In this document: positions 1 to 28,773 of the stretch, in pieces
Layout: every line of letters starts with the position of its first letter
Numbering within the stretch: position 1 is the stretch's first letter
DNA from: an uncultured bacterium
Lineage (GTDB): Bacteria > Krumholzibacteriota > Krumholzibacteriia > LZORAL124-64-63
Direction of reading: 5' to 3'
Assembly: GCA_963732385.1 (NCBI GenBank)
Contig: CAVSZB010000007.1
Span: 1,025,685 to 1,089,684 of the forward strand
Length of the DNA stretch: 64,000 nucleotides
Made by a program: the position numbers and the translations under genes
The notes under the pieces: generated by a model
The model's database searches: none
Told to the model about the DNA's origin: nothing
Seen by the model: only the letters and a program-made list of their open reading frames with translations

Positions 1-879
1 CTGGAACGGGTCTATAACTGGCTGGCGCGACGCGGGCTGCCGCGGGACGGCACCCTGGTCGGCGTGGGCGGAGGCGCACTGCTCGACCTGGCCGGCTTCG
101 CCGCAGCCACCTGGCAGCGCGGGGTTGACTTCGTGAGCGCGCCGACGACACTGCTGGCAATGGTAGACGCCTCGCTTGGCGGCAAGACCGCCCTCGACGT
201 CGCCGGCGTGAAAAACAACGTGGGCGCCTTCCACCCCGCGATCCATGTGCTGGCCGATCCGGGGTTCCTCGCCACGCTGCCGCGCCGCGAGTGGCGGAGC
301 GGACTCGCCGAGACGATCAAAGCCGCCGTGATCGCCTCACCGTCCCTCTTCGCCAACCTTGAGAGGCACGCCCCGGCTCTGCGCGCGGCGTTCGGCGAGG
401 CGGCTTCCCGTCCCCGCAGCCGCGATCTCGCCCCCGCCGCCGCGTTGCGCCTGCCCTGGACCGTCTGGATCGGCGGCGCGGCGCGGGTGAAGGCGCGCAT
501 CGTGGGACGGGACTTCCGCGAGGAGGGTCCGCGCCGCGCGCTGAATCTGGGTCACACGCTCGGACACGCTCTCGAGGCGTCCGGCGGGCTCAGTCACGGC
601 GAGGGGGTGGCCGCCGGCCTGGCGATGGCGGTGGCGATCGCCCACCTGCGCGGCCTCTGCCCGGCCCGCGACGCGGTGCGCATCCTCGCCCTGATCGAAG
701 CCTGCGGCCTGCCGATCGCGCCGCAACTCCCCCCTCTGGCCACGCTCGAGCGCCTGATCGCGGGCGACAAGAAACGTCGCCGCGGCGTCGTCGGCTGGGT
801 CCTGCCGGAGCGGATCGGCCGGGTCCGCCTGGACCAGCCGGTCGACCTGCGGAACGTGGCGGCGGTCCCGGCGCTGTGA
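1..879 (+). CDS. aroB: 3-dehydroquinate synthase, C-terminal ~290 aa (5' end lies upstream of the window)
   Basis: The frame is open from nt 1 (LERVYNWLARRGLP...). It has the glycine-rich NAD loop VGVGGGALLDLAGFAA, LGGKTALD, NLGHTLGHALE and HGEGVAAGLAMA, which are characteristic of AroB. The track ORF 64..879 is the same frame read from an internal Met. Confidence 0.85.
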   Translation: MERVYNWLARRGLPRDGTLVGVGGGALLDLAGFAAATWQRGVDFVSAPTTLLAMVDASLGGKTALDVAGVKNNVGAFHPAIHVLADPGFLATLPRREWRSGLAETIKAAVIASPSLFANLERHAPALRAAFGEAASRPRSRDLAPAAALRLPWTVWIGGAARVKARIVGRDFREEGPRRALNLGHTLGHALEASGGLSHGEGVAAGLAMAVAIAHLRGLCPARDAVRILALIEACGLPIAPQLPPLATLERLIAGDKKRRRGVVGWVLPERIGRVRLDQPVDLRNVAAVPAL

Positions 880-941
880 CCCGTCGCCGGCGCCGCCGAA
901 CGCGGTGCCGGCCGCCCGGCGCGCAGGACGGAACAGGCGGG

Positions 942-2948
942 TCAGTACAGACCGACCGGATCGATGTCCAGCATCACTTCCACCCCCCGCTCGCGCGCCT
1001 CGAGAGCGCGGGCGCAGGCGGCCAGCCAGCGTTTCCGCTCGGCGCCGAGCGATCCCTTCACCAGCAGTTGCCAACGGTAACGGTCCTGCAGCCGCTCGAA
1101 GACCGCGGGCGCCGGCCCGAGCAGTTCGCGCCCCTCGCCGGCCAGCCCCTCCCGCACCACTGCGGCCAAAGTCATGGCCGCCGCCTCGGCGACCGCCTGG
1201 CGACGCGCGCTGACGGCCAGTCGCAGCAGACGGCGAGCCGGGGGATAGCCGAGCACCTCGCGGGCAGCCAGTTCCGGCCCCGCGAAAGCATCGTAGTCGT
1301 GCCGCGCCGCCGCCTGGATCAGCGGGTGGTCCGGCCGGAAGGTCTGGAAGATCACCAGACCGGGCGTCAACCGACCGGTGCGACCCGCCACCTGGGTGAG
1401 GAGCTGGAACGCCCGCTCGTCGGCCCGGAAGTCCGGCAGCGTGAGGCCATCGTCGGCGGCCATCACCCCCACCACCGCCACCCCGGGGAAGTGATGCCCC
1501 TTGGCCACCATCTGCGTGCCGACGAGCAGTTGCGCCTCGCCGGCAGCGAACGCGCCGAGGATGCGGGCATGGCTGCCGCGACGACGGGTCGTGTCCTGAT
1601 CGAGGCGCAGCAGCCGCGCGGCGGGAAACGCCGCCGCCAGGGCGATCTCCAGCTTTTCGGTGCCGCCGCCGGCGGGCAGGAACTCCCGTCCGCCACAGTG
1701 CGGGCAGACCGGCGGGGCCGCCTGCGCGTAGCCGCAGTAGTGGCAGAGCAGCCGGCGGGGCCGCAGGTGCCAGGTGAGGCCGATGTCGCAGCGCGGACAG
1801 TTCTCCGCGACCCCGCAGGACGCGCACTGGAGCGCCCGCGCGAAACCGCGCCGGTTGTAGTAGAGGATCGCCTGCCGGCCGGCGCCCAGGGCCTCGTCGA
1901 GCGCGGCCAGCAGTCGTGGCGAAAAGCCGTCGGGCGCCGGTTCCCCGCGCATGTCCACGAGCTCGACCCGCGGCAGCTCCCCCACCGGACGGTCGGCGAG
2001 CGTGAACATCCGGTAGCGTCCTGACCGCCCGTTGGCCCAGCTCTCGAGGTCCGGCGTGGCGGAGCCGAGGATCACCACCGCCCCCGCGGCGCGCGCGCGC
2101 ACCAGGGCGGCATGCCGGGCGTGATAGCGCGGCTTCTCCTCCTGCCGGTACGAACTCTCGTGCTCTTCGTCGACGACGATGACGCCGAGATCGCGCACCG
2201 GCGCGAACAGGGCGGAGCGCGGTCCGACGACGAGACGAATCTCGCCGGCCGCCGCCGCCTCGTGCACGCGGCAGCGCTCCCCCGCCGGCAGCGCACTGTG
2301 GATGGCGGCGACCACGGGCCCGAAACGGCCCGTGATGCGCGCGATCGTCTGCGGTGTGAGGGCGATTTCCGGCAGCAGGAAGATGGCGCTGCGCCCGCGT
2401 GCGAGCGCTTCGCCGATCACCCTCAGGTAGACCTCGGTCTTGCCGCTCCCGGTCACCCCATGCAGCAGCAGGACGCCGCCGCCTCCCTCGCGGAGCTGGG
2501 TGAACGCCGCATCCGCGGCCGCCTGCTGCGCCGGGGTCAGCGCCACATTTTCGCTGTCGTGCAGCGGGAAGTCGACCGCCGCGGTGCGCGTGGCTCGGGC
2601 GCGTGTGCCGGGCGTCGGGGGATGGAAAAGCGGCACCACTTCGCCCAGCGGCAGGGCGTAGTACTCCGCCAGCCACCTCGCCAGTTGCCACCGATCTGGC
2701 GCCAGGGCGTAGGCGGGGGGCAGCAGCCGCCCGACGGGACGCACGGAGTGACCGTCGACCATCGGCGCCGGGTCGTGCGACGGGCTGACACCGGTCACCA
2801 GCCCGATGACCTCGCGTCGGCGCCCGAACGGCACCCCCACCAGGTCGCCAGGCGCGGGAGGGCGTGACGCCGCCCCCTCCTTGGCGGCATCCATTTCCCA
2901 GCGGTAGGTGAAGAACTGGTCCAGCGGCACGGGCAGGGCGACCTCCAC
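942..2948 (-). CDS. priA: primosomal protein N' (replication restart helicase PriA)
   Basis: It has a Walker A (HGVTGSGKTEVYL), a DEEH box (VIVVDEEHESSY) and a Cys-rich zinc-binding insert (CASCGVAENCPRCD...CHYCG...CPHCGG). The N-terminus (LLVEVALPVPLDQFFTY) fits PriA. I place the start at a GTG preceded by GGGGGAGGA 7-8 nt upstream, rather than the track Met at 3056. Confidence 0.85.
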   Translation of the reverse strand: MEVALPVPLDQFFTYRWEMDAAKEGAASRPPAPGDLVGVPFGRRREVIGLVTGVSPSHDPAPMVDGHSVRPVGRLLPPAYALAPDRWQLARWLAEYYALPLGEVVPLFHPPTPGTRARATRTAAVDFPLHDSENVALTPAQQAAADAAFTQLREGGGGVLLLHGVTGSGKTEVYLRVIGEALARGRSAIFLLPEIALTPQTIARITGRFGPVVAAIHSALPAGERCRVHEAAAAGEIRLVVGPRSALFAPVRDLGVIVVDEEHESSYRQEEKPRYHARHAALVRARAAGAVVILGSATPDLESWANGRSGRYRMFTLADRPVGELPRVELVDMRGEPAPDGFSPRLLAALDEALGAGRQAILYYNRRGFARALQCASCGVAENCPRCDIGLTWHLRPRRLLCHYCGYAQAAPPVCPHCGGREFLPAGGGTEKLEIALAAAFPAARLLRLDQDTTRRRGSHARILGAFAAGEAQLLVGTQMVAKGHHFPGVAVVGVMAADDGLTLPDFRADERAFQLLTQVAGRTGRLTPGLVIFQTFRPDHPLIQAAARHDYDAFAGPELAAREVLGYPPARRLLRLAVSARRQAVAEAAAMTLAAVVREGLAGEGRELLGPAPAVFERLQDRYRWQLLVKGSLGAERKRWLAACARALEARERGVEVMLDIDPVGLY

Positions 2949-3122
2949 CAGGAGTCCTCCCCCACCCGGCCGCGATCCGTCGGAGCGCGGCACGTGGCCC
3001 CGCCTTTCCGCGCCGGCGTGGCGCGCGCGGGGATGGTAACCCCGCGGCTCCGGCACGGCAACGCCCGCCCGCGTGATGCGGACGGGCGCGGTCCAGACGA
3101 GCGAGGGGCATTCGGGCGCGGC

Positions 3123-3497
3123 TCAGCCGTGCCGCACGCCGAGCAGTCCGTTGACTTTCTCCAGGAACCGCTGGGGACTGAACGGCTTGGTGATGTAGCC
3201 GTCGGCGCCCGCCTCCCGACCCTTGTCACGATCCTCGCGCCGGTCGCGGGCGGTCAGCAGGAGGACCGGAATGTCCGCCGTTTCCCGGCTAGCCTTGAGC
3301 AGGGCGCAGACCTCGAATCCGTCGCGCCGCGGCATCATCACGTCGAGCACGATAAGGTCGGGCAGCTCGCTGGCGGACAGCGCCAGGGCCTGCTCGCCGT
3401 CCGCGGCCTGAATGACCTGATAGCCCTCGGCGGTGAGACTGAAGTCGAGGATGTTCAGGATGGCGGACTCGTCGTCACAGATCAGGATCTTGCGCAA
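3123..3497 (-). CDS. single-domain response regulator (CheY-like receiver, no output domain)
   Basis: The receiver motifs are intact: DD pair (ICDDES), phospho-acceptor Asp in LIVLDVMMP, T in LLLTAR, K in ITKPF. It has a TTG start with a GGAGG RBS 8 nt upstream. It is the last gene of the c-di-GMP/TCS operon. Confidence 0.8.
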   Translation of the reverse strand: MRKILICDDESAILNILDFSLTAEGYQVIQAADGEQALALSASELPDLIVLDVMMPRRDGFEVCALLKASRETADIPVLLLTARDRREDRDKGREAGADGYITKPFSPQRFLEKVNGLLGVRHG

Positions 3498-3560
3498 GTT
3501 TCAACCTCCCGCGGGCGGCATCGCTCCAGCCGGACTGCTGCACACCCGGTTGTATCGGCC

Positions 3561-6500
3561 TCAGACGATTCCGCTTGAGACAGGCTCCGCGTCCCTGAGT
3601 TCCTGCGGCACCGGCATTCCGCGGCGCTGGCCCTGGAACCGCTCGATCCGGCAGGCTCTCAGCCCCGCCTCCTCGATGAACGGCTCCACCAGGCGCGGGC
3701 AGAACTGCGAACCGACGAGCGCGCCGATCTCCGCCGTCGCCGCGGCGAACGTCAGCGGAGAACGATAGGTGCGGCCCTGCAACATCGCGTTGAGCGCATC
3801 GGTCAGGCCGACCAGACGCGCGCCGATGGGGATCGCCTCGCCCTCCAGCCCGTCCGGATAACCCTGCCCGTCGAAGCGTTCGTGATGATGCAGAATGACC
3901 TGCCGCACCTTGGAAGAGGGCTCCAGCGGCGCCAGGATCTCGAGGCCCAGGTGTACGTGCTGGCGGATCAGTTCGCGTTCGTGGACCGAGAGCGGCGCCG
4001 CCTTGCGCAGCATCGGCTCGCTGAGCCGCGCCAGGCCCAGGTCGTAGGTCTTGAGCGCGAAGGCCAGGTTCTCGAGCTCCTCCTGAGGCAGCTTCAGCCG
4101 GCGCGCCGTCGCCAGACAGATCTCGTGGCAGATGTCCGTCAGCGCATCGTGCCGTTCACGGCGGACCGCGACGGCCGTGCGCATCGCGTCACGCAACGCC
4201 ACGAATTCGCGGGTCCGCTCCAGCCAGGCCCCCCGCCGCAGCAGCAGGTGACCGATGCGCGGCGCCATCGCCTCGAGGAGGGCCAGATCGTCGGCGGTGA
4301 AATGTCGCCCGTCGAGACGGTTGTTCACGTTGACGACTCCCACGCAATCGAGTCCGTCGAACAGCGGCACGCTCAGCAGCGAGGCGGTAACGTACTGCGG
4401 GTCGCTGGCGCGCTTGCCGAAGCGGCCGTCGCCGACGATGTCGTCCACCAGCAGACTGCGCCCGCTTGCCCACACCTTGCCCGCCACGCCCTCCCCGCGC
4501 CGCAGACGGCAGCCCTGCACGACGCTGTCGGACAGGCCGACCGCCGCCTCGATCAGCAGATGCTCGCCCGACTCCTCGGGGACCATCAGCGACACGTTGC
4601 GAACGCCCATCGTTTCGCCGATCCAGTGCACCAGCTTTTCGGTGAAGTCCAGGGGATCGGTGAACGCGGGCAGGGAGCCCTGCGGACGTCCCCGGTGCAC
4701 GACCTCGCCGGCGCGCGGGAGCACGATCTGCAGCCGCGCGCCGCTCGGCTGTCGCTTCTCGGCCCAGATGCGCCCCTCGTGCCACTGCACAATGTCGCGA
4801 CAGATGGTCAGTCCTACCCCCTGACCGCCATGCTCGCGGGTCGACGAACCATCCACCTGGTAGAAACGGTCGAAGATCAGTTCGAGCTGGCCGTCGGGAA
4901 TGCCGATGCCGGTGTCTTCCACGACGATCTTGACCGCGGTCAGGCCGTCGTAGAGCGCCAGGCGGACCGTGCCGCCCTCCGGCGTGAACTTGACGGCGTT
5001 GCTGAGCAGATGCTCGATCACCTGAGCCATCTGCGCCGCGTCGACGCTCAACCGCACGTCGTCCGCCGGCAGATCGAGCTGCAGGTTGATCGCCTTGGCG
5101 GCGATCGGGGCGGCGGCCGCCTCCGCCTGCCGTTTTACGACCTCCATCAGGCTGCATTCCTCGCGATGAACGCGCATGGTGCCGTCCTCGATCCGCGATA
5201 GATCGAGGATATCGTCCATGATGGCCGTAAGCTGCTCGCACTCCTGGTGGATGACCGTGAGGAACTCGTTGCGCACGGAATCGTCCATCGCCTGCTGATT
5301 GTGCACCAGCGTCTCGGTGTAGGCCCTGATGGAGGTCAGCGGCGTGCGCAGTTCGTGGCTGACGTTGGCCACGAAATTGCTCTTGAGTTCGTTCAGGTTC
5401 TTCAGCTGCTCCGAAGCGCGCGACAGCTCCAGGTTGTTGCGCGCCAGCTGATCATACAGTTCCGCCGATTCGATCGCGGTGCTGGCATGGCTGCCGAAAA
5501 CCTCCAGCTGATGAATGATCTCCACGGAGGGCAACCGGCGATCCACGGGATCGTCCACGCTCAGGTAACCGCGCACCTCTCCATCCGTCGACAGCAGCGG
5601 CACGATCAGCATGTCGTCCTCGTGCCATTCGTCGGCGGCGCGCTCGCCCAGATTCATGGTAAAGCCGTCCGCGGTGACCGCGGCCCACTCTTCGTCCTGG
5701 TGGCTTACGAAGTAGCTCGCCGAAACCCGGAATCTCGGCTGGGTCATCCGCCGGTACTCGTCCATCGCGATCTGCAGACCGATCAGGTGCGCCTTGCCCT
5801 CCTCCGTGATGCCGGCGAACGCGCGGGCCTCGAAGACCTGGGTGGAGGGGGACCAGATGCGCAGCAGCACCATCCGGAAACCGAGCGATTCGCGCACCGC
5901 TTCCGCCACCTGCTGCAGGACCGGGTTCAGGGAGCGGGTGGCATTGATGCGCGCAGTCAGCTGCAGGATGCGCTCGAGCGTCTGGGCGCGCCGCCCGAGC
6001 TGCTTTACCTGGGCCCGCTGCCCCTCCAGCAGACGCGCGCCCTCCTCGCCCGCGCGCCGCGCCTCATCGAGTTGCGCCACGGCCAGCGCGTATTCCGAGG
6101 CCAGCGTCACGGAACTGTCCCGCAGGGTCTGCAGGCTCTCCTGCCGCTCTCGCGCCAGCAGACCCGCGCCGGAACACAGCGCCGCGCCGAAAATCGCCGC
6201 GTGCGCCACGGCCGCCGGCCACCCGGCCGCGAAACCGAACCGGGCCGAAGCCCCCGTCAGGGCCGCCAGCAGGACCGCGGTCAGGGCGGTCGCGGCCCAC
6301 ACGCACCAGACCCGCCGGGACACCGCGCCGGCGCGCCACAGACGGCGTCCCCCCTCGACCAGGGCCGCCACGATCGCCAGTTCGACCAGGGCCAGCGGGA
6401 TCGGCAGGGCGGCGCCGTCCGCCACGCCGGTCACCACCCCCGTCAGCCGCGCCGCAGAGAACACGGCCTGCGCCTGACCGGCCAGTTCGACGCCGCGGTA

Positions 6501-6653
6501 CGTGCGCATCCCGGTCCGCAGGCGCGCCAGGCGGAAGACCTGCGCCAGCCCGAGGCCCAAAAACAACAACAGCGTCTGGTGGACGTCGAACACGCCGACC
6601 TCCACCAGAGGCCGGGTCAGCGGCTGCAGCAGCCATAAGGTGGCCGTCGGCAT
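3561..6653 (-). CDS. membrane sensor histidine kinase fused to GAF and a C-terminal HD-GYP domain (4-5 TM - coiled coil - GAF - HisKA - HATPase_c - GAF - HD-GYP), paralog 1
   Basis: The N-terminus has 4-5 hydrophobic helices. The H-box is SHELRTPLTSIRAYTETL. The N/G-box region reads VKFTPEGGTVRLAL...VEDTGIGIP...GGQGVGLTICRDIV. A second GAF follows, then the HD-GYP signature HHHERFDGQGYPDGL. The usual HD dyad appears as KTYDLG. Confidence 0.8.
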   Translation of the reverse strand: MPTATLWLLQPLTRPLVEVGVFDVHQTLLLFLGLGLAQVFRLARLRTGMRTYRGVELAGQAQAVFSAARLTGVVTGVADGAALPIPLALVELAIVAALVEGGRRLWRAGAVSRRVWCVWAATALTAVLLAALTGASARFGFAAGWPAAVAHAAIFGAALCSGAGLLARERQESLQTLRDSSVTLASEYALAVAQLDEARRAGEEGARLLEGQRAQVKQLGRRAQTLERILQLTARINATRSLNPVLQQVAEAVRESLGFRMVLLRIWSPSTQVFEARAFAGITEEGKAHLIGLQIAMDEYRRMTQPRFRVSASYFVSHQDEEWAAVTADGFTMNLGERAADEWHEDDMLIVPLLSTDGEVRGYLSVDDPVDRRLPSVEIIHQLEVFGSHASTAIESAELYDQLARNNLELSRASEQLKNLNELKSNFVANVSHELRTPLTSIRAYTETLVHNQQAMDDSVRNEFLTVIHQECEQLTAIMDDILDLSRIEDGTMRVHREECSLMEVVKRQAEAAAAPIAAKAINLQLDLPADDVRLSVDAAQMAQVIEHLLSNAVKFTPEGGTVRLALYDGLTAVKIVVEDTGIGIPDGQLELIFDRFYQVDGSSTREHGGQGVGLTICRDIVQWHEGRIWAEKRQPSGARLQIVLPRAGEVVHRGRPQGSLPAFTDPLDFTEKLVHWIGETMGVRNVSLMVPEESGEHLLIEAAVGLSDSVVQGCRLRRGEGVAGKVWASGRSLLVDDIVGDGRFGKRASDPQYVTASLLSVPLFDGLDCVGVVNVNNRLDGRHFTADDLALLEAMAPRIGHLLLRRGAWLERTREFVALRDAMRTAVAVRRERHDALTDICHEICLATARRLKLPQEELENLAFALKTYDLGLARLSEPMLRKAAPLSVHERELIRQHVHLGLEILAPLEPSSKVRQVILHHHERFDGQGYPDGLEGEAIPIGARLVGLTDALNAMLQGRTYRSPLTFAAATAEIGALVGSQFCPRLVEPFIEEAGLRACRIERFQGQRRGMPVPQELRDAEPVSSGIV

Positions 6654-6672
6654 CGATCCCCCTCGCGCCGGG

Positions 6673-7062
6673 TCAGACCGCCGGGCGCGCCCGCGCCACG
6701 AGCAGTCTCTGGATCAGGTCCACCAGCCGCGAAATCGTGAACGGCTTGCGCATGAAGTGGTTCGCTCCCGCCTGCAGGATGGTGTCGCGCGTCTGCGGAT
6801 CAGCGCGCGCCGACAACGCGACAATGATCGTGTCGGCGTAGGCGCGGTTGCGCCGGATGAGACGGGTGGTGTCCACTCCGTCAAGCTTCGGCATCATGAT
6901 ATCCATGACGATCACGTCGGGCCGGAACGTCGACACCTTGTTCATGCAATCGACACCGTCCCGCGCCGTCGCGACCTGGAAGCGCTCGTTGTTCAGGGCG
7001 TGGCTGAGCACGTTCACGAGCGGCAGTTCGTCGTCAACGATCAGGACCCTTGGGGCTGCCAT
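6673..7062 (-). CDS. single-domain response regulator (CheY-like receiver)
   Basis: The receiver motifs are VLIVDDELP, DVIVMDIMMPKLDG, IIVALSAR and FMRKPF. Its 5' end overlaps the stop of HK paralog 2 by about 22 nt. GAGGGGGA lies upstream of the next gene. Confidence 0.8.
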   Translation of the reverse strand: MAAPRVLIVDDELPLVNVLSHALNNERFQVATARDGVDCMNKVSTFRPDVIVMDIMMPKLDGVDTTRLIRRNRAYADTIIVALSARADPQTRDTILQAGANHFMRKPFTISRLVDLIQRLLVARARPAV

Positions 7063-10013
7063 CTACCCTCCTGTTCGTGATCGGCGGGCACTGTCGCGGC
7101 CGCCGGCGATCCGGCCGGAGACGCCCCGAACAGGCCCTCCTCGCGCAGGACGGCCACGAAGACCTCCACGACCTCGGCGTCGAACTGCCGACCCGCGTTG
7201 CCCCGCAACTCCCCCACGGCGTGCTCCGCGGAGCGGCTCTCATGCCACGGCCGTTCCTGGCTCATGGCGAAGAAGGCATCGACCACGGCCAGAATGCGCG
7301 CGCCGAGCGGGATATCGCTGCCGAGCAGGCCACGCGGGTAGCCGCTCCCGTCCACCCGCTCGTGATGGGCCATGATGATCTGACTCATCTCGGGCGCCTG
7401 GAGCAGCGGCGACACGAGATTGGCACCCTGCTCCGGGTGCTGAGTGACCTCGTCGTGCTCGTCCTCGGTGAGTGGCCCCGTCTTGTGCAGGATCTCGTCG
7501 TCCACCGCGACCATGCCGACGTCGTGCACCGAGGCTACGTACTGCAGCCGCCGGATCTCGGCGCGCGTCAGCCCGAGCCGACGCGCGGTCTCGACGAGCA
7601 GCCGACGCGCCAGCGGGGTGGCCGTGGGGATGGCGTTGCGCTTCATGACGATCAGCGCCTGCAGGGCATCGACGATCTTCTCGACCCGCCGCGCCGAGGA
7701 GTCGGCCTGCATCGCCTGCTCCAGCGCGGCCGACACCTTGTCGCTCAGGGTCGTCACCAGGGCCAGGTCGTCTTCATTGAAGGGAGCGCCCGACACCTTG
7801 TTATTGACGTTGATCACGCCGATCGCCTTGTCGCCGATGCGCAGAGGCACCGACACCAGGGAGTGCGTTTCGTACTGATCGCGGTTCCCCGACTCGATCA
7901 GGCCGTCTTTCACGACGTCCGCCACCAGCAGTGGCCGGCCCGACTGCAGCACGCGCCCGGCGATCCCCTTGCCGATCGCCACATGCGCGCTCTTGACGAT
8001 GCTCTCGTTCAGCCCGTAGGCCGACTGCACCACGAGATTCCGTCCGTCCTTGTCGAGCAGCATGAGCGACACGATCTTCGATTCGGTCATCTCTGCGACC
8101 ATGCGCACGGTCAGACGCAGCAGCTGCTGGAACTGTGGTCGCGTCGTGAGATCGCCGAGGATGGCGGCGGTGACCGGATTGAGCTGGTGCTCCTTGGGCA
8201 GGTGGAAGATGAAAGAAGACCCTTGCCCCACCGTGCTCTGCACGTCGATGTGCCCGCCGTGCAGGTCGATGATGTTCTTGACGATCGACAGTCCGAGACC
8301 CGCCCCCTCGACCCCCTCGCTCAGGCCGCTGACGCGGTAGAACTGCCGAAATATGCGGCGCAATTCGTCGGCGGGGATGCCGGGGCCGGTGTCGCTGACC
8401 GTCACGCGGATGGTGGCGGCGTCCTCGCTGGCGCTCACCGTGACGGTGCCCCCGCCCGGCGTGTACTTGATCGCGTTGTTGAGCAGGTTGATGAGGACCT
8501 GTCGGATGAGATCGGCGTCGATCTCCACGCGGGGCAGCAGGGCCGGCACATCCAGCGTCAGGCGCAACCCCTTGGCGTCGAGGAGCGGATCGAGCGTGCG
8601 CAACGTTTCGCGGATCAGCGGCTCCAGATCGAGCACGCAACGGTTCAGGAAACGCTGCCCGAATTCGAGGCGCGAAAAGTCGAGGATGCGATTCACCATC
8701 CGCAGCAGGCGCTCGGACTCCTCGCGGATGATGCCGAGGAATTCTCCGGTCTGCGCGAAGTCCGGCCGTGCGCGTTCGCTGAGCAACGCCTCTGTGTAGG
8801 CGCTGATCGAGGTGAGCGGCGTCTTGAGTTCGTGGCTGGCCACCGCCACGAAATCGCTCTGCATCTTGTTGATGCGCGTGAGCGTCTCGTTCTCGGCGTG
8901 CAGGGAGGCCAATTCGCCCCGCAGGCGGGCCAGATGCCCGCTCGCCGCAAGCAGCGGCGCCAGCTGGCTGCCCAGGCGGACCATGGTCATCTTCAGATAA
9001 GCCTCGTCGGCCTCGTGCGACCGCAGCCCCACGAGCACGGCCAGACCGGCGGCGCCGCGTCCGACGAGCGGGGCGAGCAGCCAGCGATCGAACACAGACC
9101 CGGCGGCCGGAGGGAAGTCGGCGTCGCGCAGCGCCGCGGCAGGACCGGCAGAGAAGGGGCGATCCAAATCGCGTGCGGCGGTCCCGAAGAAGGCGGCGCT
9201 ACGGGCCGTCAGATCGATCCACTGCGGCCAGGTCTGTCCGCCCCTTACGGCGATGCAGCGCGCCGGAGTCCCGCGCTCGTCATCCACATCCGCCGGCCAG
9301 CCCGGACTGGTGATCGCGGCCGCGAACGCCACGCCCGGCACCCGGGTGAGCACGAGCACCGTTTCCTCGAGCAGATCCGCGAAGTCGCCGTCCTCGCCCA
9401 GGGCAATGCCGGCGTTGTCGGCGGTGCGCCTGGCAAGGCTGTCCACCGGCTCCGGGGTCGCCACCCACCCCGGCAGCAGCACGCGCCTGGCCGTCCGGAC
9501 GAGATGCGTGACCGACAGGAGCAGGGCGCCCAGCATCAGGGTAACCCCCAGCACCAGCCGCCAGTCGAATTCGCTCGCAGGGTCGCCACCCGGCCAGGAG
9601 ACGCTCGCCATCGCCGCGAATCCGCCGAGCAGCCCCAGCGTGGCGCCGAGACTCGACCTCGCCGAGGCACAGAGCAGGCCGGCGTGACAGGCTGGGAAGA
9701 GCAGCAGGAAGAGGTAGGGGCTGGAAACCCCGCCGGTGAGCACGAGCAACGGCAGCCAGATCGCCGCGTCGGCGAGCAGGATCGGCAGCGCCGCCAGCGG
9801 CCGTCCGCCGGAGCGGAAACCGCCGGAGAACAGCGCGAGCAGTGCCTGCAGGACGGCCGCGACGGCGAACAGCACGAGGACGGGGGGCAGCGGGAAGCGG
9901 AGCGCGGCCAGTTCACGCGAGACGAGGACGACCAGGAGGCCGACCGTCAACTCCGCCCAGCGGACCTGTCGCAGCAGGTAATGGTTGATATCGGCCACGC
10001 GATCCAAGAGCAA
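7041..10013 (-). CDS. membrane sensor histidine kinase fused to GAF and a C-terminal HD-GYP domain (5 TM - GAF-like - HisKA - HATPase_c - GAF - HD-GYP), paralog 2
   Basis: It has about five N-terminal TM helices. The H-box is SHELKTPLTSISAYTEALL. HATPase_c reads NAIKYTPGGGTVTV...VSDTGPGIP...GAGLGLSIVKNII. A GAF follows, then an HD-GYP with an intact VHDVG dyad and HHERVDGSGYPRGL. It has the same architecture as 3561..6653. Confidence 0.8.
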   Translation of the reverse strand: MLLDRVADINHYLLRQVRWAELTVGLLVVLVSRELAALRFPLPPVLVLFAVAAVLQALLALFSGGFRSGGRPLAALPILLADAAIWLPLLVLTGGVSSPYLFLLLFPACHAGLLCASARSSLGATLGLLGGFAAMASVSWPGGDPASEFDWRLVLGVTLMLGALLLSVTHLVRTARRVLLPGWVATPEPVDSLARRTADNAGIALGEDGDFADLLEETVLVLTRVPGVAFAAAITSPGWPADVDDERGTPARCIAVRGGQTWPQWIDLTARSAAFFGTAARDLDRPFSAGPAAALRDADFPPAAGSVFDRWLLAPLVGRGAAGLAVLVGLRSHEADEAYLKMTMVRLGSQLAPLLAASGHLARLRGELASLHAENETLTRINKMQSDFVAVASHELKTPLTSISAYTEALLSERARPDFAQTGEFLGIIREESERLLRMVNRILDFSRLEFGQRFLNRCVLDLEPLIRETLRTLDPLLDAKGLRLTLDVPALLPRVEIDADLIRQVLINLLNNAIKYTPGGGTVTVSASEDAATIRVTVSDTGPGIPADELRRIFRQFYRVSGLSEGVEGAGLGLSIVKNIIDLHGGHIDVQSTVGQGSSFIFHLPKEHQLNPVTAAILGDLTTRPQFQQLLRLTVRMVAEMTESKIVSLMLLDKDGRNLVVQSAYGLNESIVKSAHVAIGKGIAGRVLQSGRPLLVADVVKDGLIESGNRDQYETHSLVSVPLRIGDKAIGVINVNNKVSGAPFNEDDLALVTTLSDKVSAALEQAMQADSSARRVEKIVDALQALIVMKRNAIPTATPLARRLLVETARRLGLTRAEIRRLQYVASVHDVGMVAVDDEILHKTGPLTEDEHDEVTQHPEQGANLVSPLLQAPEMSQIIMAHHERVDGSGYPRGLLGSDIPLGARILAVVDAFFAMSQERPWHESRSAEHAVGELRGNAGRQFDAEVVEVFVAVLREEGLFGASPAGSPAAATVPADHEQEGRWQPQGS

Positions 10014-10051
10014 CTCCGTTGCCGCCGTTCGGGGAACCCTGCTGCGCCCGG

Positions 10052-11038
10052 TCAGCGCGCCGTGTCCACAACGCCGGCAACGGTGGTGACGACGGGCGCC
10101 TCGTTCGGCGCGCGCCGCTCGCGGACGATCACGCTGCCGTTGATGGTCTTGCCGTAGCTCTTGAGCTCGGCGGCGATATCGCTCAGACGCGCGATGTGCT
10201 GGGCCTGTCCTGTGGCGTCGGTCACGAGCGCAATGGTCAGGGTGACGAACGGCATCATCTTCTCGAGGCCGGCGCGGCTGCGCACCTGGATGTAGCCCCG
10301 CTCGCGGTCGACCGGGTCATATAGGGCCGTTACGCCCTCGTCGAACCGCCGGATGATCTGTGCGGCGAGCGTGTCGGCATGCTCGGGGGCGGAGATGACC
10401 ACGAAGTCGTCGCCGCCGATGTGTCCGGTGAAGACCGATTGATCAACCGATTCGCGCCCGACATCGAGCAGCATCCGGGCCAGGAAACTGATCGCCTCGT
10501 CGCCCCGCGTATAACCGTAGTAGTCGTTGAAGCCCTTGAAATTATCGATGTCCAGATACAGGAAGCTGAACGGCTGCCCCTCCTGTGAACGCCGCTGCAC
10601 CTCCTGATCGATCGCCCGGTTCCCCGGCAGGCCGGTCAGCGGATTGGCGTCGCGCTGCGACTGGCTCCAGTCCAGCATGTTGCGCATGCGCAGCATCAGT
10701 TCTTCGTGGTTGAACGGCTTGGTCAGGTAGTCGTTCGCGCCCCCGCGCAGACCGCGCACCTTCTCGGAGCCCTCGCCCTTGGCGGTGAGCATGATGACCG
10801 GGATCCAGCTCGTGCGGAAGGCCTCGCGCAGTTTTTGCAGCAGCGTGAAGCCGTCCATCTTCGGCATCATCACGTCGAGCAGGATCAGGTCGGGCACGCT
10901 GCGTTCGATGAACTCGAGGGCGACCAAGCCGTTCTCCGCGAGCGTGACCTCGAAGCCCTCCTGCTCCAGCAGGAACTGGAGGATCTTCCGGATATGCGGC
11001 TCATCATCGACGACGAGAATTCTGCGGGCCGCGGACAT
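10052..11038 (-). CDS. response regulator with receiver and GGDEF (diguanylate cyclase) domains; the GGDEF motif reads GGDDF
   Basis: The REC domain reads RILVVDDEPHIRK...LILLDVMMPKMDG...LTAKG...YLTKPF. The GGDEF domain reads LYLDIDNFKGFNDYYGYTRGDEAI...RESVDQSVFTGHIGGDDFVV. I place the start at ATG 11038, which follows AGGGGGG. The track extension to 11182 (MGVRVPSMSP...) looks untranslated. Confidence 0.8.
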   Translation of the reverse strand: MSAARRILVVDDEPHIRKILQFLLEQEGFEVTLAENGLVALEFIERSVPDLILLDVMMPKMDGFTLLQKLREAFRTSWIPVIMLTAKGEGSEKVRGLRGGANDYLTKPFNHEELMLRMRNMLDWSQSQRDANPLTGLPGNRAIDQEVQRRSQEGQPFSFLYLDIDNFKGFNDYYGYTRGDEAISFLARMLLDVGRESVDQSVFTGHIGGDDFVVISAPEHADTLAAQIIRRFDEGVTALYDPVDRERGYIQVRSRAGLEKMMPFVTLTIALVTDATGQAQHIARLSDIAAELKSYGKTINGSVIVRERRAPNEAPVVTTVAGVVDTAR

Positions 11039-11194
11039 ATGCCCCCCTGACGGGCGTGCAATCTGAAGGCACGCCGCCACGATTTGGGATTTGGGGGCAT
11101 TTTTGGCAATTCGCATGCCATCGACGGGAAGAAGCGACCCCGGAATGGCGAGAGGGGACATTGAAGGAACCCGAACGCCCATTTGGGCCGATTC
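11039..11194 (-). promoter_or_regulatory. 156-bp lower-GC leader/promoter region upstream of the REC-GGDEF/HK/REC operon, with short direct repeats
   Basis: This is the only sizeable gap in the tsaD-to-priA gene run. It contains GATTTGGG-ATTTGGGGG-CATTTTTGG on plus, which is CCCAAAT repeats on the coding strand. The minus strand has a TTGCCA hexamer. The -10 is weak. Confidence 0.3.
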
Positions 11195-12214
11195 TCAGCG
11201 CCAGGAAGCCACGGGACCACGAGCGAAACTGTCCAGATTCCAGCCATCGACGTGCCCGGCGACCAGCCGGCACCACCCCGCGTAGGCGATCATGGCGGCA
11301 TTATCGGTGCAGTATGCCGGATCCGGGGGCAGGAAATGCAGTCCCTCGCGAGCGGCGGCTGCGGCCACCGCGCCCCGCAGCCGACGATTGGCCGCCACCC
11401 CGCCGGCGAGATAGACTGCCCGCGTCCGCCGCTCGCGCGCCGCCTGGATCAGACGCGCAACGAGAACCTCGACGATGGCCTCCTGGGTCTCGAGCGCCAG
11501 ATCGGCCACATCCTGCGGCAAATGCGGCCGGGGCAGCTTTTCCACCTCCAGGCGCGCCGCGGTCTTGAGGCCGCTGAAGCTGAAGACGATCCGCGGGTCG
11601 CGCAGCAGCGGCCGGGGGAACCGGAAATGTCCCGGCCGCCCCCCCTCCGCCGCCCGATCGATGGCCGGACCACCCGGATAGGGGAGGCCGAGCAGTTGGG
11701 CCACCTTGTCGAACGCCTCGCCCGCCGCGTCGTCGAGCGTCGCGCCGAGGCGCTCGTAACGCCCCACCTCCGACATCAGCACGACCTCGGTGTGACCACC
11801 TGAAACCACCAGCACCGCGGCCGGGAACTGCAGCGGGGCCGTGAGCGCATTGGCCAGGATGTGTCCTTCGATGTGGTGCACCCCGGCCAGCTTCAGGCCG
11901 GCCGTGTAGGCCAGCGCCTTGGCCGTGGAGAGACCGACCAGCAGCGCGCCGATCAAACCAGGGCCGGCGGTCACCGCCACGCCGTCGAGGTCCTTCAGCC
12001 CGAGCCTCTGGCCCGACAGCAGATGCTCGACCATCGGCAGCAGATTGACCAGATGGGCGCGTGACGCGAGTTCCGGCACGACCCCGCCGAAAGGTCCGTG
12101 CAGCCTCACCTGAGAGGAGACGAGGTTCGCCGTCACGCCACGACCCTCTTCGTAGAGCGCCACGCTCGTGTCGTCACAACTGGTTTCGATACCGAGCACG
12201 CGCACGGCGTTCAC
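11195..12214 (-). CDS. tsaD: tRNA N6-adenosine threonylcarbamoyltransferase (Kae1/YgjD family)
   Basis: It has MNAVRVLGIETSCDDTSVALYEEG, the metal-binding HxxGH (HIEGH), and is 339 aa. Its start overlaps the nnr stop (ATGA). Confidence 0.9.
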   Translation of the reverse strand: MNAVRVLGIETSCDDTSVALYEEGRGVTANLVSSQVRLHGPFGGVVPELASRAHLVNLLPMVEHLLSGQRLGLKDLDGVAVTAGPGLIGALLVGLSTAKALAYTAGLKLAGVHHIEGHILANALTAPLQFPAAVLVVSGGHTEVVLMSEVGRYERLGATLDDAAGEAFDKVAQLLGLPYPGGPAIDRAAEGGRPGHFRFPRPLLRDPRIVFSFSGLKTAARLEVEKLPRPHLPQDVADLALETQEAIVEVLVARLIQAARERRTRAVYLAGGVAANRRLRGAVAAAAAREGLHFLPPDPAYCTDNAAMIAYAGWCRLVAGHVDGWNLDSFARGPVASWR

Positions 12215-28271: not shown

Positions 28272-28302
28272 CGGATGGCGGCCTCCCGCGTCACGCAGGG
28301 AC

Positions 28303-28773
28303 TCAACGGATGGCGCGGACGCCGGTCAGCCCCCATCCCGCCTCCCCGCGCGCCAGCGTGATGATCAACCGCTCTGGCGCCGCCCCGCTCTCGCCCGACC
28401 GCCGGCGGGTCCAGTCCGCCACCGCGTGCACGAGACCGGTCTCCAGTTCCTCGTTCAGCAGGCTGTAACGGAAAGAGACCGTCTCGGTGGACTGGAAGAG
28501 GTTCTTGAAAAAATAGAAGGCCTGACTCGCGCTGTAGTGGTTGCGCGCCCCCCCCTGCCCAAAGGCAATGTCCACACCGTCGGGTGCGACCCGCGCCGCC
28601 AGCGCCCCGTGATCCTCCGCTTCCCAGACCCGAGCGAGCGCGTCCAGCACCGGCCGCGCCGGTGGCGGTTCCTCGCGGACCGTTCCGGCCCCTGCCAGCC
28701 GACTCACCGCGAAAACCACCAGCAAGGCCGGCAAAAGACCGTTTCGGCAGGACCGGAGAACAGCGGAATTCAC
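28303..28773 (-). CDS. small secreted hypothetical protein (about 156 aa)
   Basis: A GTG start follows GAGGGGAGAAGG. The signal peptide is VNSAVLRSCRNGLLPALLVVFAVSRLAGAG. The conserved-looking core is YSASQAFYFFKNLFQSTETVSFRY. The track ORF up to 29007 would overlap secF. Confidence 0.5.
   Translation of the reverse strand: MNSAVLRSCRNGLLPALLVVFAVSRLAGAGTVREEPPPARPVLDALARVWEAEDHGALAARVAPDGVDIAFGQGGARNHYSASQAFYFFKNLFQSTETVSFRYSLLNEELETGLVHAVADWTRRRSGESGAAPERLIITLARGEAGWGLTGVRAIR

What the first reader, a model, noticed from the sequence alone, without database searches (positions are those of the whole stretch)
3123..11194. Five-gene c-di-GMP/two-component operon with a rare histidine kinase-GAF-HD-GYP fusion in two tandem copies
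Five genes are co-oriented with gaps of -22 to +63 nt. They run REC-GGDEF (10052-11038), HK-GAF-HD-GYP (7041-10013), stand-alone REC (6673-7062), a paralogous HK-GAF-HD-GYP (3561-6653) and a second stand-alone REC (3123-3497). HD-GYP phosphodiesterases are normally fused to receiver domains (RpfG type). Here each one sits where a hybrid kinase would carry its receiver, behind a second GAF domain, and each kinase is followed by its own CheY-like single-domain regulator. The module has been duplicated. One transcript therefore appears to encode c-di-GMP synthesis, two degradation or sensing units and three phospho-acceptors. I do not recall this wiring as a described pathway.
Basis: partly seen in the sequence, partly recalled or inferred. 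Interest (0 to 1): 0.75.

Follow-up and report, generated by a model that had tools for sequence, protein, structure and literature searches.

The report
Kinase-fused HD-GYP c-di-GMP operon
A five-gene cluster conserved in an uncultured bacterial lineage joins two sensor kinases, each ending in a domain of the type that degrades c-di-GMP, to a regulator that probably makes c-di-GMP and to two small receiver proteins; every part is a known kind, but I found no description or study of this combination.

Summary
Five co-oriented minus-strand genes encode REC-GGDEF-like, HisKA-HATPase_c-GAF-HD-GYP, REC, a paralogous kinase-GAF-HD-GYP, and REC. Gaps run from -22 to +63 nt, and each start has its own ribosome-binding site.

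Four corrections apply:
- The cyclase motif is GGDDF. It is invariant in a very large, multi-phylum family.
- Both HD-GYP domains are non-canonical. All 96 kinase-fused HD-GYP domains examined lack the first metal-binding His (PmGH H189), and most lack the HDxGK Lys. The downstream kinase has YD instead of HD. The remaining metal ligands, the GYP motif and RxxR/K are nearly invariant.
- The duplication is ancient (35% identity). Related genomes carry 3-, 4- and 5-gene versions, almost always between tsaD and priA.
- The fusion is not vanishingly rare. At least 83 clusters at 50% identity carry it, all from uncultured bacteria labelled Krumholzibacteriota, Eisenbacteria or similar.

The HD-GYP census and my literature searches do not mention this architecture.

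Best reading: a phosphorylation-activated cyclase works with kinases that degrade c-di-GMP (upstream kinase) or sense it (downstream kinase). This would be a self-limiting c-di-GMP circuit. It is a new variant of known kinds, of moderate interest, and the mechanism is inferred, not shown.

The parts
10052..11038 (-). Response-regulator cyclase (328 aa). It has REC (phospho-acceptor D55, window 10874-10876), a helical linker and a GGDEF-fold domain with the GGDDF motif (aa 208-212, window 10403-10417). The guanine-recognising N171 and D180 are kept. There is no RxxD inhibitory site.
   Evidence: Pfam. Ortholog alignment with GH(V/I)GGDDF invariant. Family survey. The AF2 model (pLDDT 83.8) best matches WspR, DgcR and PleD.
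7041..10013 (-). Upstream kinase HKa (990 aa). About five N-terminal hydrophobic segments are followed by an unassigned region of about 180 aa. Then come HisKA (8661-8861, H394), HATPase_c (8190-8519), GAF (7719-8132) and HD-GYP (7170-7658). The HD-GYP has HD at 7521-7526, HHERVDGSGYP at 7335-7370, D912 and RPWH at 7242-7253. Ala798 (7620-7622) sits where PmGH has H189.
   Evidence: Pfam. Alignments. Hydropathy and motif coordinates. The AF2 model of GAF-HD-GYP (pLDDT 83.4) has PmGH 4mcw as top hit, E 1e-14.
6673..7062 (-). Single-domain receiver RECa (129 aa, D54). Its start overlaps the HKa stop by 22 nt, with an AGGAGG site 5 nt upstream.
   Evidence: Pfam, junction sequence, orthologs.
3561..6653 (-). 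Downstream kinase HKb (1030 aa). N-terminal hydrophobic segments and a coiled-coil-like stretch are followed by a weak GAF (5472-5930). Then come HisKA (5181-5384, H433), HATPase_c (4713-5042), GAF (4251-4652) and HD-GYP (3702-4184). The HD-GYP has YD instead of HD (4041-4046), HHHERFDGQGYP (3855-3890), D952 and RTYR (3762-3773).
   Evidence: Pfam. Alignments. Coordinates.
3123..3497 (-). Single-domain receiver RECb (124 aa, TTG start, D52). It is the receiver type that also accompanies the single kinase in the 3-gene versions of the cluster.
   Evidence: Pfam. Typing of receivers in related loci. It is 43% identical to the cyclase REC, against 33% for RECa.
11195..12214 (-). tsaD, the conserved upstream neighbour. 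A 156-nt gap separates it from the cyclase gene, so the cluster's promoter probably lies there.
   Evidence: Pfam TsaD 3e-90. Synteny.
942..3056 (-). priA, the conserved downstream neighbour. It lies 66 nt after RECb. A 12-bp GC hairpin at 3061-3089 sits in the gap.
   Evidence: Pfam PriA domains. Synteny. Hairpin fold, not significant against shuffles.

Best explanation
SHOWN. This is a vertically inherited five-gene signalling cluster between tsaD and priA in a Krumholzibacteriota-like genome of about 70% GC. It encodes:
- a WspR/DgcR-type response regulator whose GGDEF-fold domain carries an invariant GGDDF motif and keeps the guanine-specific Asn and Asp;
- two membrane histidine kinases with intact PhoR/WalK-type cores, whose C-terminus is a PmGH-like GAF-HD-GYP module instead of a receiver;
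- one single-domain receiver after each kinase.

INFERRED MECHANISM.
1. Signals reach the membrane/N-terminal parts and the GAF domains and set kinase activity.
2. The kinases phosphorylate the cyclase receiver and the small receivers. The cyclase REC and RECb look like one specificity class. RECa looks like a private partner of HKa.
3. The phosphorylated cyclase dimerises and makes c-di-GMP.
4. The HD-GYP tail of HKa keeps HD and all other metal ligands except the H189 equivalent. The active enzyme RpfG shows the same loss. This tail most likely still hydrolyses c-di-GMP.
5. The YD tail of HKb most likely only binds c-di-GMP and feeds that information back to its kinase core through the helical stalk.
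6. The small receivers act as competing phospho-acceptors: sinks or separate outputs.

The net effect would be a self-limiting c-di-GMP pulse or homeostat, with synthesis, removal and sensing encoded on one transcript.
For: - Domains and catalytic boxes are confirmed.
- The GGDDF motif and the N/D specificity residues are invariant. A GGDDF domain has been shown to be active (GSU1937 chimera, PMC8835794).
- The cyclase model matches WspR, DgcR and PleD. The kinase tail model matches PmGH over both domains, then PA4781 and DvhD.
- Metal-ligand and substrate residues are nearly invariant in 96 fused domains: D222, H250, H276/277, E278, GYP, D305, R314 and K/R317. This argues for a retained metal and nucleotide site.
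- RpfG naturally lacks the H189 and E185 equivalents (PMC4159591).
- A degenerate HD-GYP is a proven c-di-GMP receptor that signals through its stalk helix (DvhD, PMC13090378).
- In distant phyla the same cyclase family sits beside an ordinary kinase. The adjacent kinase is therefore the expected phospho-donor.
- A 3-gene core (cyclase, one kinase with HD, RECb-type receiver) exists in related lineages.
- The cyclase REC is closer to RECb than to RECa.
- Gaps are tight, start and stop overlap in one case, RBSs are present and there is no internal terminator. In orthologous loci the gaps are short inside the cluster and longer before priA and after tsaD.
Against: - No activity, binding, phosphotransfer or transcript has been measured.
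- In PmGH, H189A, H221A and K225A each abolish hydrolysis. All fused domains lack H189, and 87 of 96 have Met or Leu for K225. HKa may therefore be inactive too.
- Conversely, Tyr at the H221 position is conserved rather than random (32 of 96) and could still ligate iron, so HKb might be active.
- GGDDF activity is documented only for one engineered chimera of a Hypr-type relative. The family also replaces PleD R366 by an invariant His.
- Partner assignment rests on overall identity and gene order, not on a specificity analysis.
- The N-terminal sensor regions have no recognisable family and vary between orthologues.
Confidence: 0.42

Rival explanations
1. Both HD-GYP tails are non-catalytic c-di-GMP receptors. 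Binding of c-di-GMP made by the REC-GGDDF protein switches each kinase between kinase and phosphatase modes. The precedents are CckA, SgmT and DvhD. The cluster would then contain no degrading activity.
For: The H189 equivalent is absent in 96 of 96 fused domains, and the HDxGK Lys is replaced in 87 of 96. The corresponding Ala mutants kill PmGH. Substrate-contact residues (GYP Tyr, R314, K/R317) are kept. The DvhD precedent stands, and structural similarity is 2.0 A rmsd over 164 columns.
Against: A pure receptor such as DvhD has lost HD and HH altogether. Here D222, H250, H276, H277 and D305 are nearly invariant over phylum-level divergence, which suggests a functional metal centre. RpfG is active without H189.
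Confidence: 0.27
2. This is a split RpfG. The single-domain receiver encoded after each kinase, once phosphorylated, docks on that kinase's HD-GYP tail and activates hydrolysis in trans. The three separate pieces would reproduce REC-HD-GYP logic.
For: REC-HD-GYP is the commonest HD-GYP architecture. A receiver gene follows nearly every fused kinase, and the pair is translationally coupled here.
Against: 4-gene variants have two fused kinases but only one receiver (L012, L017, L020, L022). No similarity to RpfG receivers beyond generic REC matches was found. A GAF, not a REC, occupies the regulatory position next to HD-GYP, as in PmGH.
Confidence: 0.1
3. The nucleotide handled is not c-di-GMP, or not only c-di-GMP. 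The GGDDF enzyme or the HD-GYP tails could act on 3'3'-cGAMP or pGpG.
For: The only GGDDF enzyme shown to be active makes cGAMP as well as c-di-GMP. A few family members have Ser or Asn at the specificity position. Window HKa has RxxH, and 5 of 96 fused domains have RxxQ, a change linked to cGAMP preference.
Against: The window cyclase and 83 of 93 relatives keep Asp at the guanine-specificity position. 86 of 96 fused domains keep RxxR/K, the c-di-GMP signature.
Confidence: 0.08
4. The genes are neighbours but not one functional unit. The kinases would signal to regulators elsewhere, and the cluster would be held together only by chromosomal inertia between two housekeeping genes.
For: No experimental link exists. 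The flanks tsaD and priA are conserved too, so synteny alone could be inherited.
Against: The set expands and contracts as a unit (2- to 5-gene versions) while always combining the same families. One gene pair overlaps and the other gaps are very short. In other phyla the cyclase family is again adjacent to a kinase.
Confidence: 0.05

Closest known systems
PleC/DivJ - DivK - PleD of Caulobacter crescentus (from my own knowledge of the literature)
   Same: Two histidine kinases serve a single-domain receiver and a receiver-GGDEF cyclase. Phosphorylation activates c-di-GMP synthesis. The small receiver modulates the kinases.
   Different: The Caulobacter kinases carry no c-di-GMP domain, and feedback goes through a separate kinase (CckA). 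PleD is REC-REC-GGEEF with an inhibitory site. Here the kinases themselves carry GAF-HD-GYP, the cyclase is REC-GGDDF without RxxD, and all genes sit in one cluster.
RpfC/RpfG (REC-HD-GYP response regulator family)
   Same: It is a two-component system coupled to an HD-GYP domain. Like the domains here, RpfG lacks the H189 and E185 equivalents.
   Different: In RpfG the HD-GYP is the output of the response regulator. Here it is fused to the kinase behind a GAF, and the receivers are separate proteins. The membership feature 'REC fused to HD-GYP' is not met.
PmGH (GAF-HD-GYP, PDB 4mcw)
   Same: It is the best structural match to the kinase tail over both domains (E 1e-14, 25% identity), with the same GAF-then-HD-GYP order.
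   Different: PmGH is a stand-alone soluble enzyme with a trinuclear iron site. The tails here lack E185, H189 and K225 (HKb also H221) and are appended to a kinase core.
DvhD of Desulfovibrio vulgaris (degenerate HD-GYP c-di-GMP receptor, PDB 9rbz/9rc0)
   Same: Its HD-GYP fold is used to sense c-di-GMP and to transmit through the preceding stalk helix. It is a close structural match.
   Different: DvhD has lost HD (SQ) and HH (MN) completely and is a LapD-like inside-out receptor, not a kinase. The domains here keep most metal ligands.
Kinases that carry or bind c-di-GMP modules: SgmT (kinase with degenerate GGDEF), CckA (binds c-di-GMP), kinase-EAL fusions in Caulobacterales and Rhizobiales (the first two from my own knowledge)
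   Same: The principle is the same: c-di-GMP information is integrated directly in a histidine kinase polypeptide.
   Different: The module is of a different type (GGDEF, CA-domain site or EAL). None of these uses HD-GYP.
GSU1937 of Geobacter sulfurreducens (GGDDF-motif Hypr GGDEF enzyme)
   Same: It has the GGDDF active-site variant and is the only one shown to be catalytically competent. Ser-variant members of the same GHxGGDDF family occur in Syntrophus, Thermodesulfovibrionia and Actinomycetota loci.
   Different: GSU1937 has a membrane N-terminus and the Hypr Ser. The window protein has REC and the canonical Asp. I could not align GSU1937 itself, so the relationship is inferred.

Membership tests
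HD-GYP domain (PROSITE PS51832 sense; Galperin & Chou) | HD superfamily fold plus the HHExxDGxGYP motif | tested here: met
   HKa has AHHERVDGSGYP and HKb has HHHERFDGQGYP. Pfam HD_5 scores are 2e-34 and 9e-29. The model matches PmGH, PA4781 and DvhD.
HD-GYP domain (catalytically competent c-di-GMP phosphodiesterase) | Full set of metal ligands: H189, H221, D222, H250, H276, H277, D305, plus the supporting K225 (PmGH numbering) | tested here: not met
   The H189 position is Ala in HKa and Leu in HKb, and no His occurs at that column in 96 of 96 fused domains. K225 is Met or Leu. H221 is Tyr in HKb. D222, H250, H276/277 and D305 are kept. In PmGH, H189A, H221A and K225A abolish activity, yet RpfG lacks H189 and is active.
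HD-GYP domain (c-di-GMP recognition) | GYP Tyr, RxY[K/R] motif, KPG loop | tested here: met
   Tyr is kept in 87 of 96, R314 in 85 of 96 and K/R317 in 86 of 96. Window HKa has RPWH and HKb has RTYR. The KPG loop is only loosely kept: KTG in HKa and KAA in HKb.
RpfG family (REC-HD-GYP response regulator) | Receiver domain fused N-terminally to HD-GYP | tested here: not met
   There is no REC in either kinase polypeptide. The receivers are separate genes.
PmGH family (GAF-HD-GYP) | GAF immediately N-terminal to HD-GYP | tested here: met
   Pfam GAF covers residues 628-765 in HKa and 668-801 in HKb, directly before HD_5. Foldseek's top hit is 4mcw over 342 columns. The module is embedded in a kinase, so it is a fusion and not a plain family member.
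Class I (HisKA-type) sensor histidine kinase | H-box His in the DHp, plus N, G1, F and G2 boxes in the CA domain | tested here: met
   HKa has SHELKTPL (H394), NNAIKYTP, DTGPGI, FRQFYR and GAGLGL. HKb has SHELRTPL (H433), SNAVKFTP, DTGIGI, FDRFYQ and GQGVGL. The best NCBIfam cores are PnpS, WalK and PhoR, all below their cut-offs.
Hybrid histidine kinase | Receiver domain fused C-terminal to the kinase core | tested here: not met
   GAF-HD-GYP occupies that position.
GGDEF diguanylate cyclase | GG[D/E]EF active-site motif | tested here: not met
   The motif is GGDDF in the window and in 6 of 6 orthologues, and a regex finds it in 111 of 120 homologues. One GGDDF enzyme is active as a chimera, so failing the motif does not exclude activity.
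GGDEF diguanylate cyclase | GGDEF fold with the guanine-binding Asn and Asp (PleD N335, D344) and the Mg-binding Asp | tested here: met
   DIDNFKGFNDYYGYTRGD carries N171 and D180, which are invariant in alignments A1 and A3. Pfam GGDEF scores 2e-16 but covers only profile positions 5-129 of 161. The AF2 model matches WspR, DgcR and PleD.
GGDEF diguanylate cyclase | RxxD allosteric inhibitory site five residues before the motif (common but not universal) | tested here: not met
   There is no RxxD upstream of GGDDF in the window or in the orthologues.
CheY-like receiver domain (all three) | Acidic pocket, phospho-acceptor Asp, conserved Thr/Ser and Lys | tested here: met
   The cyclase has DDE, D55, T and K. 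RECa has DDE, D54, S and K. RECb has DDE, D52, T and K. Pfam scores range from 1e-27 to 5e-33.
Single operon | Co-transcription of the five genes | not testable with these tools
   Only indirect support exists: gaps of -22 to 63 nt, an RBS at each start, no intergenic terminator-like site and conserved order.

The most novel reading that the evidence does not exclude
The kinase-fused HD-GYP domains form a distinct, deliberately remodelled subclass: the H-site of the metal centre is removed while the rest is kept. They would work as in-cis c-di-GMP receptors or slow enzymes that flip the attached kinase between kinase and phosphatase states. One operon would then form a closed loop: phosphorelay, then c-di-GMP synthesis, then c-di-GMP perception by the kinase itself. 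This would be a second, independent example of an HD-GYP-type receptor and the first inside a histidine kinase.
Probability: 0.3. Interest if true: 0.65.

Novelty: new variant of a known kind. Interest (0 to 1): 0.5.

Why it matters
c-di-GMP and two-component signalling usually meet at the response regulator (PleD, WspR, RpfG). Here the c-di-GMP-degrading-type domain sits on the kinase, and it does so consistently across candidate phyla that have no cultured members. If the tails hydrolyse or sense c-di-GMP, the cluster is a compact, genetically self-contained feedback circuit. It would also be a natural test case for how HD-GYP domains work with a reduced metal site.

The work also shows that GGDDF is not a decayed motif. 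It is the invariant signature of a very large, multi-phylum family of receiver-linked GGDEF-fold proteins, and only one member of that family has been tested. Domain censuses that score GGDDF as 'degenerate' may therefore undercount cyclases.

Tried and rejected
- NCBIfam gave only sub-threshold generic kinase and receiver matches, and no specific family.
- Pfam found nothing in the N-terminal 371 residues of HKa, even at E 0.1.
- Direct PDB sequence alignments start after the H189 region and could not settle that residue. I resolved it by aligning against canonical GAF-HD-GYP proteins recovered in the representative search. My first column assignment was off by one and was corrected.
- The first word-indexed homologue search returned only about 24 fused clusters and suggested extreme rarity. 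The exhaustive HMMER search and the genome scan showed this was a sensitivity limit.
- I considered a recent tandem duplication and rejected it (35% identity, separate orthologue sets).
- I considered horizontal acquisition, because GC dips inside the cluster. I rejected it because synteny is conserved across phyla.
- The long ORFs 337-3111(-) and 7050-10157(+) are high-GC shadow frames with no Pfam hit.
- The hairpin before priA is not significant against shuffles.
- Looking up the window's own RECa did not identify the source organism.
- I could not fetch GSU1937, RpfG or PmGH sequences to align them directly.

Full report
**Observation**

The 64-kb window has about 70% GC. On the minus strand between 3123 and 11038 lie five ORFs.
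- REC plus GGDEF (10052-11038; the longest ORF runs to 11182);
- HisKA-HATPase_c-GAF-HD_5/HD (7041-10013);
- REC (6673-7062);
- a second HisKA-HATPase_c-GAF-HD_5/HD (3561-6653);
- REC (3123-3497).

E-values range from 1e-16 to 1e-34. The gaps are 38, -22, 19 and 63 nt. Every start is preceded by a purine-rich ribosome-binding motif, and the RECa start lies inside the end of the upstream kinase gene. A consensus scan finds no terminator-like site in any gap.

The flanking genes are tsaD and a YjeF/Nnr gene upstream, and priA downstream. Two very long overlapping ORFs in other frames have no family match and are high-GC artefacts.

**Fine anatomy of the kinases**

Both kinases have about five N-terminal hydrophobic segments. 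Both have complete catalytic boxes: H-box His, N, G1, F and G2. Their cores resemble PnpS, WalK and PhoR but stay below every NCBIfam cut-off.

They are 35% identical from the DHp to the end of the HD-GYP. Only the downstream kinase (HKb) has an additional weak N-terminal GAF. An AlphaFold model of the HKa tail (pLDDT 83.4) has the stand-alone GAF-HD-GYP enzyme PmGH as its best PDB match over both domains. PA4781 and the c-di-GMP receptor DvhD follow. The GAF alone is closest to the cAMP-bound GAF of Lcd1.

**The HD-GYP active site**

I aligned the window proteins, five sets of orthologues and 83 further fused proteins with canonical GAF-HD-GYP sequences. Canonical proteins carry DxYTxGHSxRV, where the His is PmGH H189. 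None of the 96 kinase-fused domains has His at that column; they have Ala, Leu, Ser, Arg or a gap. The Lys of HDxGK is Met or Leu in 87 of 96.

The HD His (H221) is His in 56 and Tyr in 32. The window's HKa has HD. HKb has YD, as do 5 of its 6 orthologues.

By contrast, the following are each kept in 85-96 of 96: D222, H250, H276, H277, E278, the DG..GYP motif, D305, R314 and K/R317.

In PmGH, H189A, H221A and K225A abolish hydrolysis. The same paper notes that the active enzyme RpfG naturally has Phe at H189 and Gly at E185, and probably runs on a binuclear site (PMC4159591). A fully degenerate HD-GYP (DvhD, with SQ and MN in place of HD and HH) is a proven c-di-GMP receptor that signals through its stalk helix (PMC13090378).

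The fused domains lie between these extremes. One corner of the metal centre has been removed in a coordinated way, and the rest is under strong constraint.

**The cyclase**

The motif is GGDDF. It is invariant in the six orthologues, found by regex in 111 of 120 database homologues, and present in 90 of 93 domains from genome loci. The guanine-recognising Asn and Asp are kept. There is no RxxD inhibitory site, and the Arg before the motif is replaced by an invariant His.

The AlphaFold model (pLDDT 83.8) matches WspR, DgcR and PleD over the whole length. The only experimental datum for GGDDF is GSU1937 of Geobacter, whose domain made cGAMP and c-di-GMP when grafted onto GacA (PMC8835794). A few family members here carry the Hypr-type Ser or an Asn at the specificity position. 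The window protein does not.

The family is very large. It has at least 1441 database clusters and at least 596 species-level genome loci from many phyla.

**Comparative genomics**

Contigs encoding kinases 37-70% identical to HKa all show the same order. That order is HAD, yjeF, tsaD, then cyclase, HKa, RECa, HKb, RECb, then priA. Cyclase homologues at about 54% identity lie in the same cluster.

I scanned 80 genome loci with HMMs built from my alignments. The results were:
- 5-gene clusters: L010, L015 and L021 are complete; L013 is cut by the contig end.
- 4-gene clusters with two fused kinases and one receiver (L012, L017, L020, L022).
- 3-gene clusters with one HD-type fused kinase and a RECb-type receiver (L018, L019, L023-L025).
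- One locus with only cyclase and receiver between tsaD and priA (L026).
- One Limnocylindrales-labelled contig with tsaD, cyclase and fused kinase (L035).

The records are labelled Krumholzibacteriota/-ia, Eisenbacteria, Latescibacteria or simply 'bacterium'. All are MAGs.

In Omnitrophota, Eremiobacterota, Planctomycetota and others, the same cyclase family sits directly after an ordinary kinase (L027-L034 and others). The probable history therefore runs in four steps:
1. a kinase plus REC-GGDDF pair;
2. acquisition of a GAF-HD-GYP tail and a small receiver;
3. duplication of the kinase;
4. insertion of a second receiver, and the H-to-Y change in one paralogue.

Receiver comparison fits this history. 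The cyclase REC is 43% identical to RECb and 33% to RECa.

**How rare, and is it known?**

An exhaustive HMMER search of 1.84 billion representatives used the HKa core-to-tail segment as query. In 83 of the best 150 hits my HMMs detect both a kinase core and an HD-GYP. The list was still at 296 bits when it was cut off. The architecture is therefore a populated family, confined as far as I can see to uncultured lineages.

The dedicated census of HD-GYP architectures lists REC, GAF, PAS, DUF3391, DUF3369, Cache, PBPb, CHASE2 and MASE partners. It mentions histidine kinases only as sharing sensor domains. The 2005 signalling census, an alphaproteobacterial survey (which reports kinase-EAL fusions) and two full-text searches gave no description of a kinase-HD-GYP fusion. 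The library does not cover most subscription journals.

**Mechanism**

The shown parts are the parts list, the residue patterns and the conservation. The inferred part is the following sequence:
1. The kinases phosphorylate the cyclase receiver and the small receivers.
2. The phosphorylated cyclase makes c-di-GMP.
3. HKa's RpfG-like HD-GYP removes c-di-GMP.
4. HKb's YD domain reports c-di-GMP back to its kinase.
5. The small receivers compete for phosphate or carry a separate output.

I put this at about 0.4. The main rival (0.27) is that both tails are receivers only. Smaller rivals are trans-activation of the tails by the small receivers (a split RpfG), a different nucleotide, and mere neighbourhood.

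**Comparison and verdict**

The circuit works like PleC/DivJ-DivK-PleD with the c-di-GMP feedback moved onto the kinases. Its tail is a PmGH-type module. Its active-site remodelling recalls RpfG on one side and DvhD on the other.

It fails the defining feature of the RpfG family and of hybrid kinases, because no receiver is fused. It also fails the strict motif definitions of active GGDEF and HD-GYP enzymes. It is therefore best filed as a new variant of known kinds.

The finding deserves moderate interest. It is not a new principle. It is an undescribed, deeply conserved and experimentally tractable wiring, and it raises two side issues of wider relevance: the GGDDF family and the H-site-less HD-GYP subclass.

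Noticed in passing
window 23376-28325 (-): An ORF of about 1650 aa ends in HAMP-PAS_4-HisKA-HATPase_c. Its N-terminal part of about 1230 residues has no Pfam match. It is a giant sensor kinase unrelated to the cluster.
   Followed up: partly
window 3061-3089 (-): A perfect 12-bp GC hairpin lies between the RECb stop and the priA GTG start, with no U-tract. The fold energy is not significant against shuffles (z -1.15). It could mark the 3' end of the cluster transcript.
   Followed up: partly
window 3000-11500: GC content falls to 0.645-0.69 inside the cluster, against 0.72-0.75 in the flanks. Because synteny is conserved across phyla, this more likely reflects protein composition than recent transfer.
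   Followed up: partly
window 7719-8132 (-) and 4251-4652 (-): The GAF between kinase core and HD-GYP has the cAMP-bound GAF of Lcd1 (5w10) as its best single-domain structural match. It also contains an N-[KR]-x5-F-x3-D stretch that resembles the NKFDE signature of cyclic-nucleotide GAFs. This hints at cNMP control, as in Tlr0485.
   Followed up: no
loci L010-L089 (genome-contig scan): GH(V/I)GGDDF with PLTGLPGN defines a very large GGDEF-fold family in many phyla. Members are usually REC-linked and usually lie next to a kinase. A minority have Ser or Asn at the guanine-specificity position. Apart from one Geobacter chimera, the family appears uncharacterised.
   Followed up: partly
L026 (Eisenbacteria MAG) and L035 (Limnocylindrales-labelled MAG): L026 has only cyclase plus receiver between tsaD and priA, with no kinase. 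L035 carries tsaD, cyclase and fused kinase under a Chloroflexota label, which suggests either transfer or mis-binning.
   Followed up: no
window 6673-7062 (-) and orthologues: RECa orthologues share an invariant DG(V/I)DCMNK stretch. They also have Ser instead of Thr at the conserved switch position (ALSAR). These features set them apart from RECb and the cyclase receiver.
   Followed up: no
window 10052-11038 (-), residues 1-120: The cyclase receiver is 45% identical to Thermotoga RR468 and superposes on it at 0.7 A rmsd. RR468 is the partner of the HisKA-type kinase HK853.
   Followed up: no
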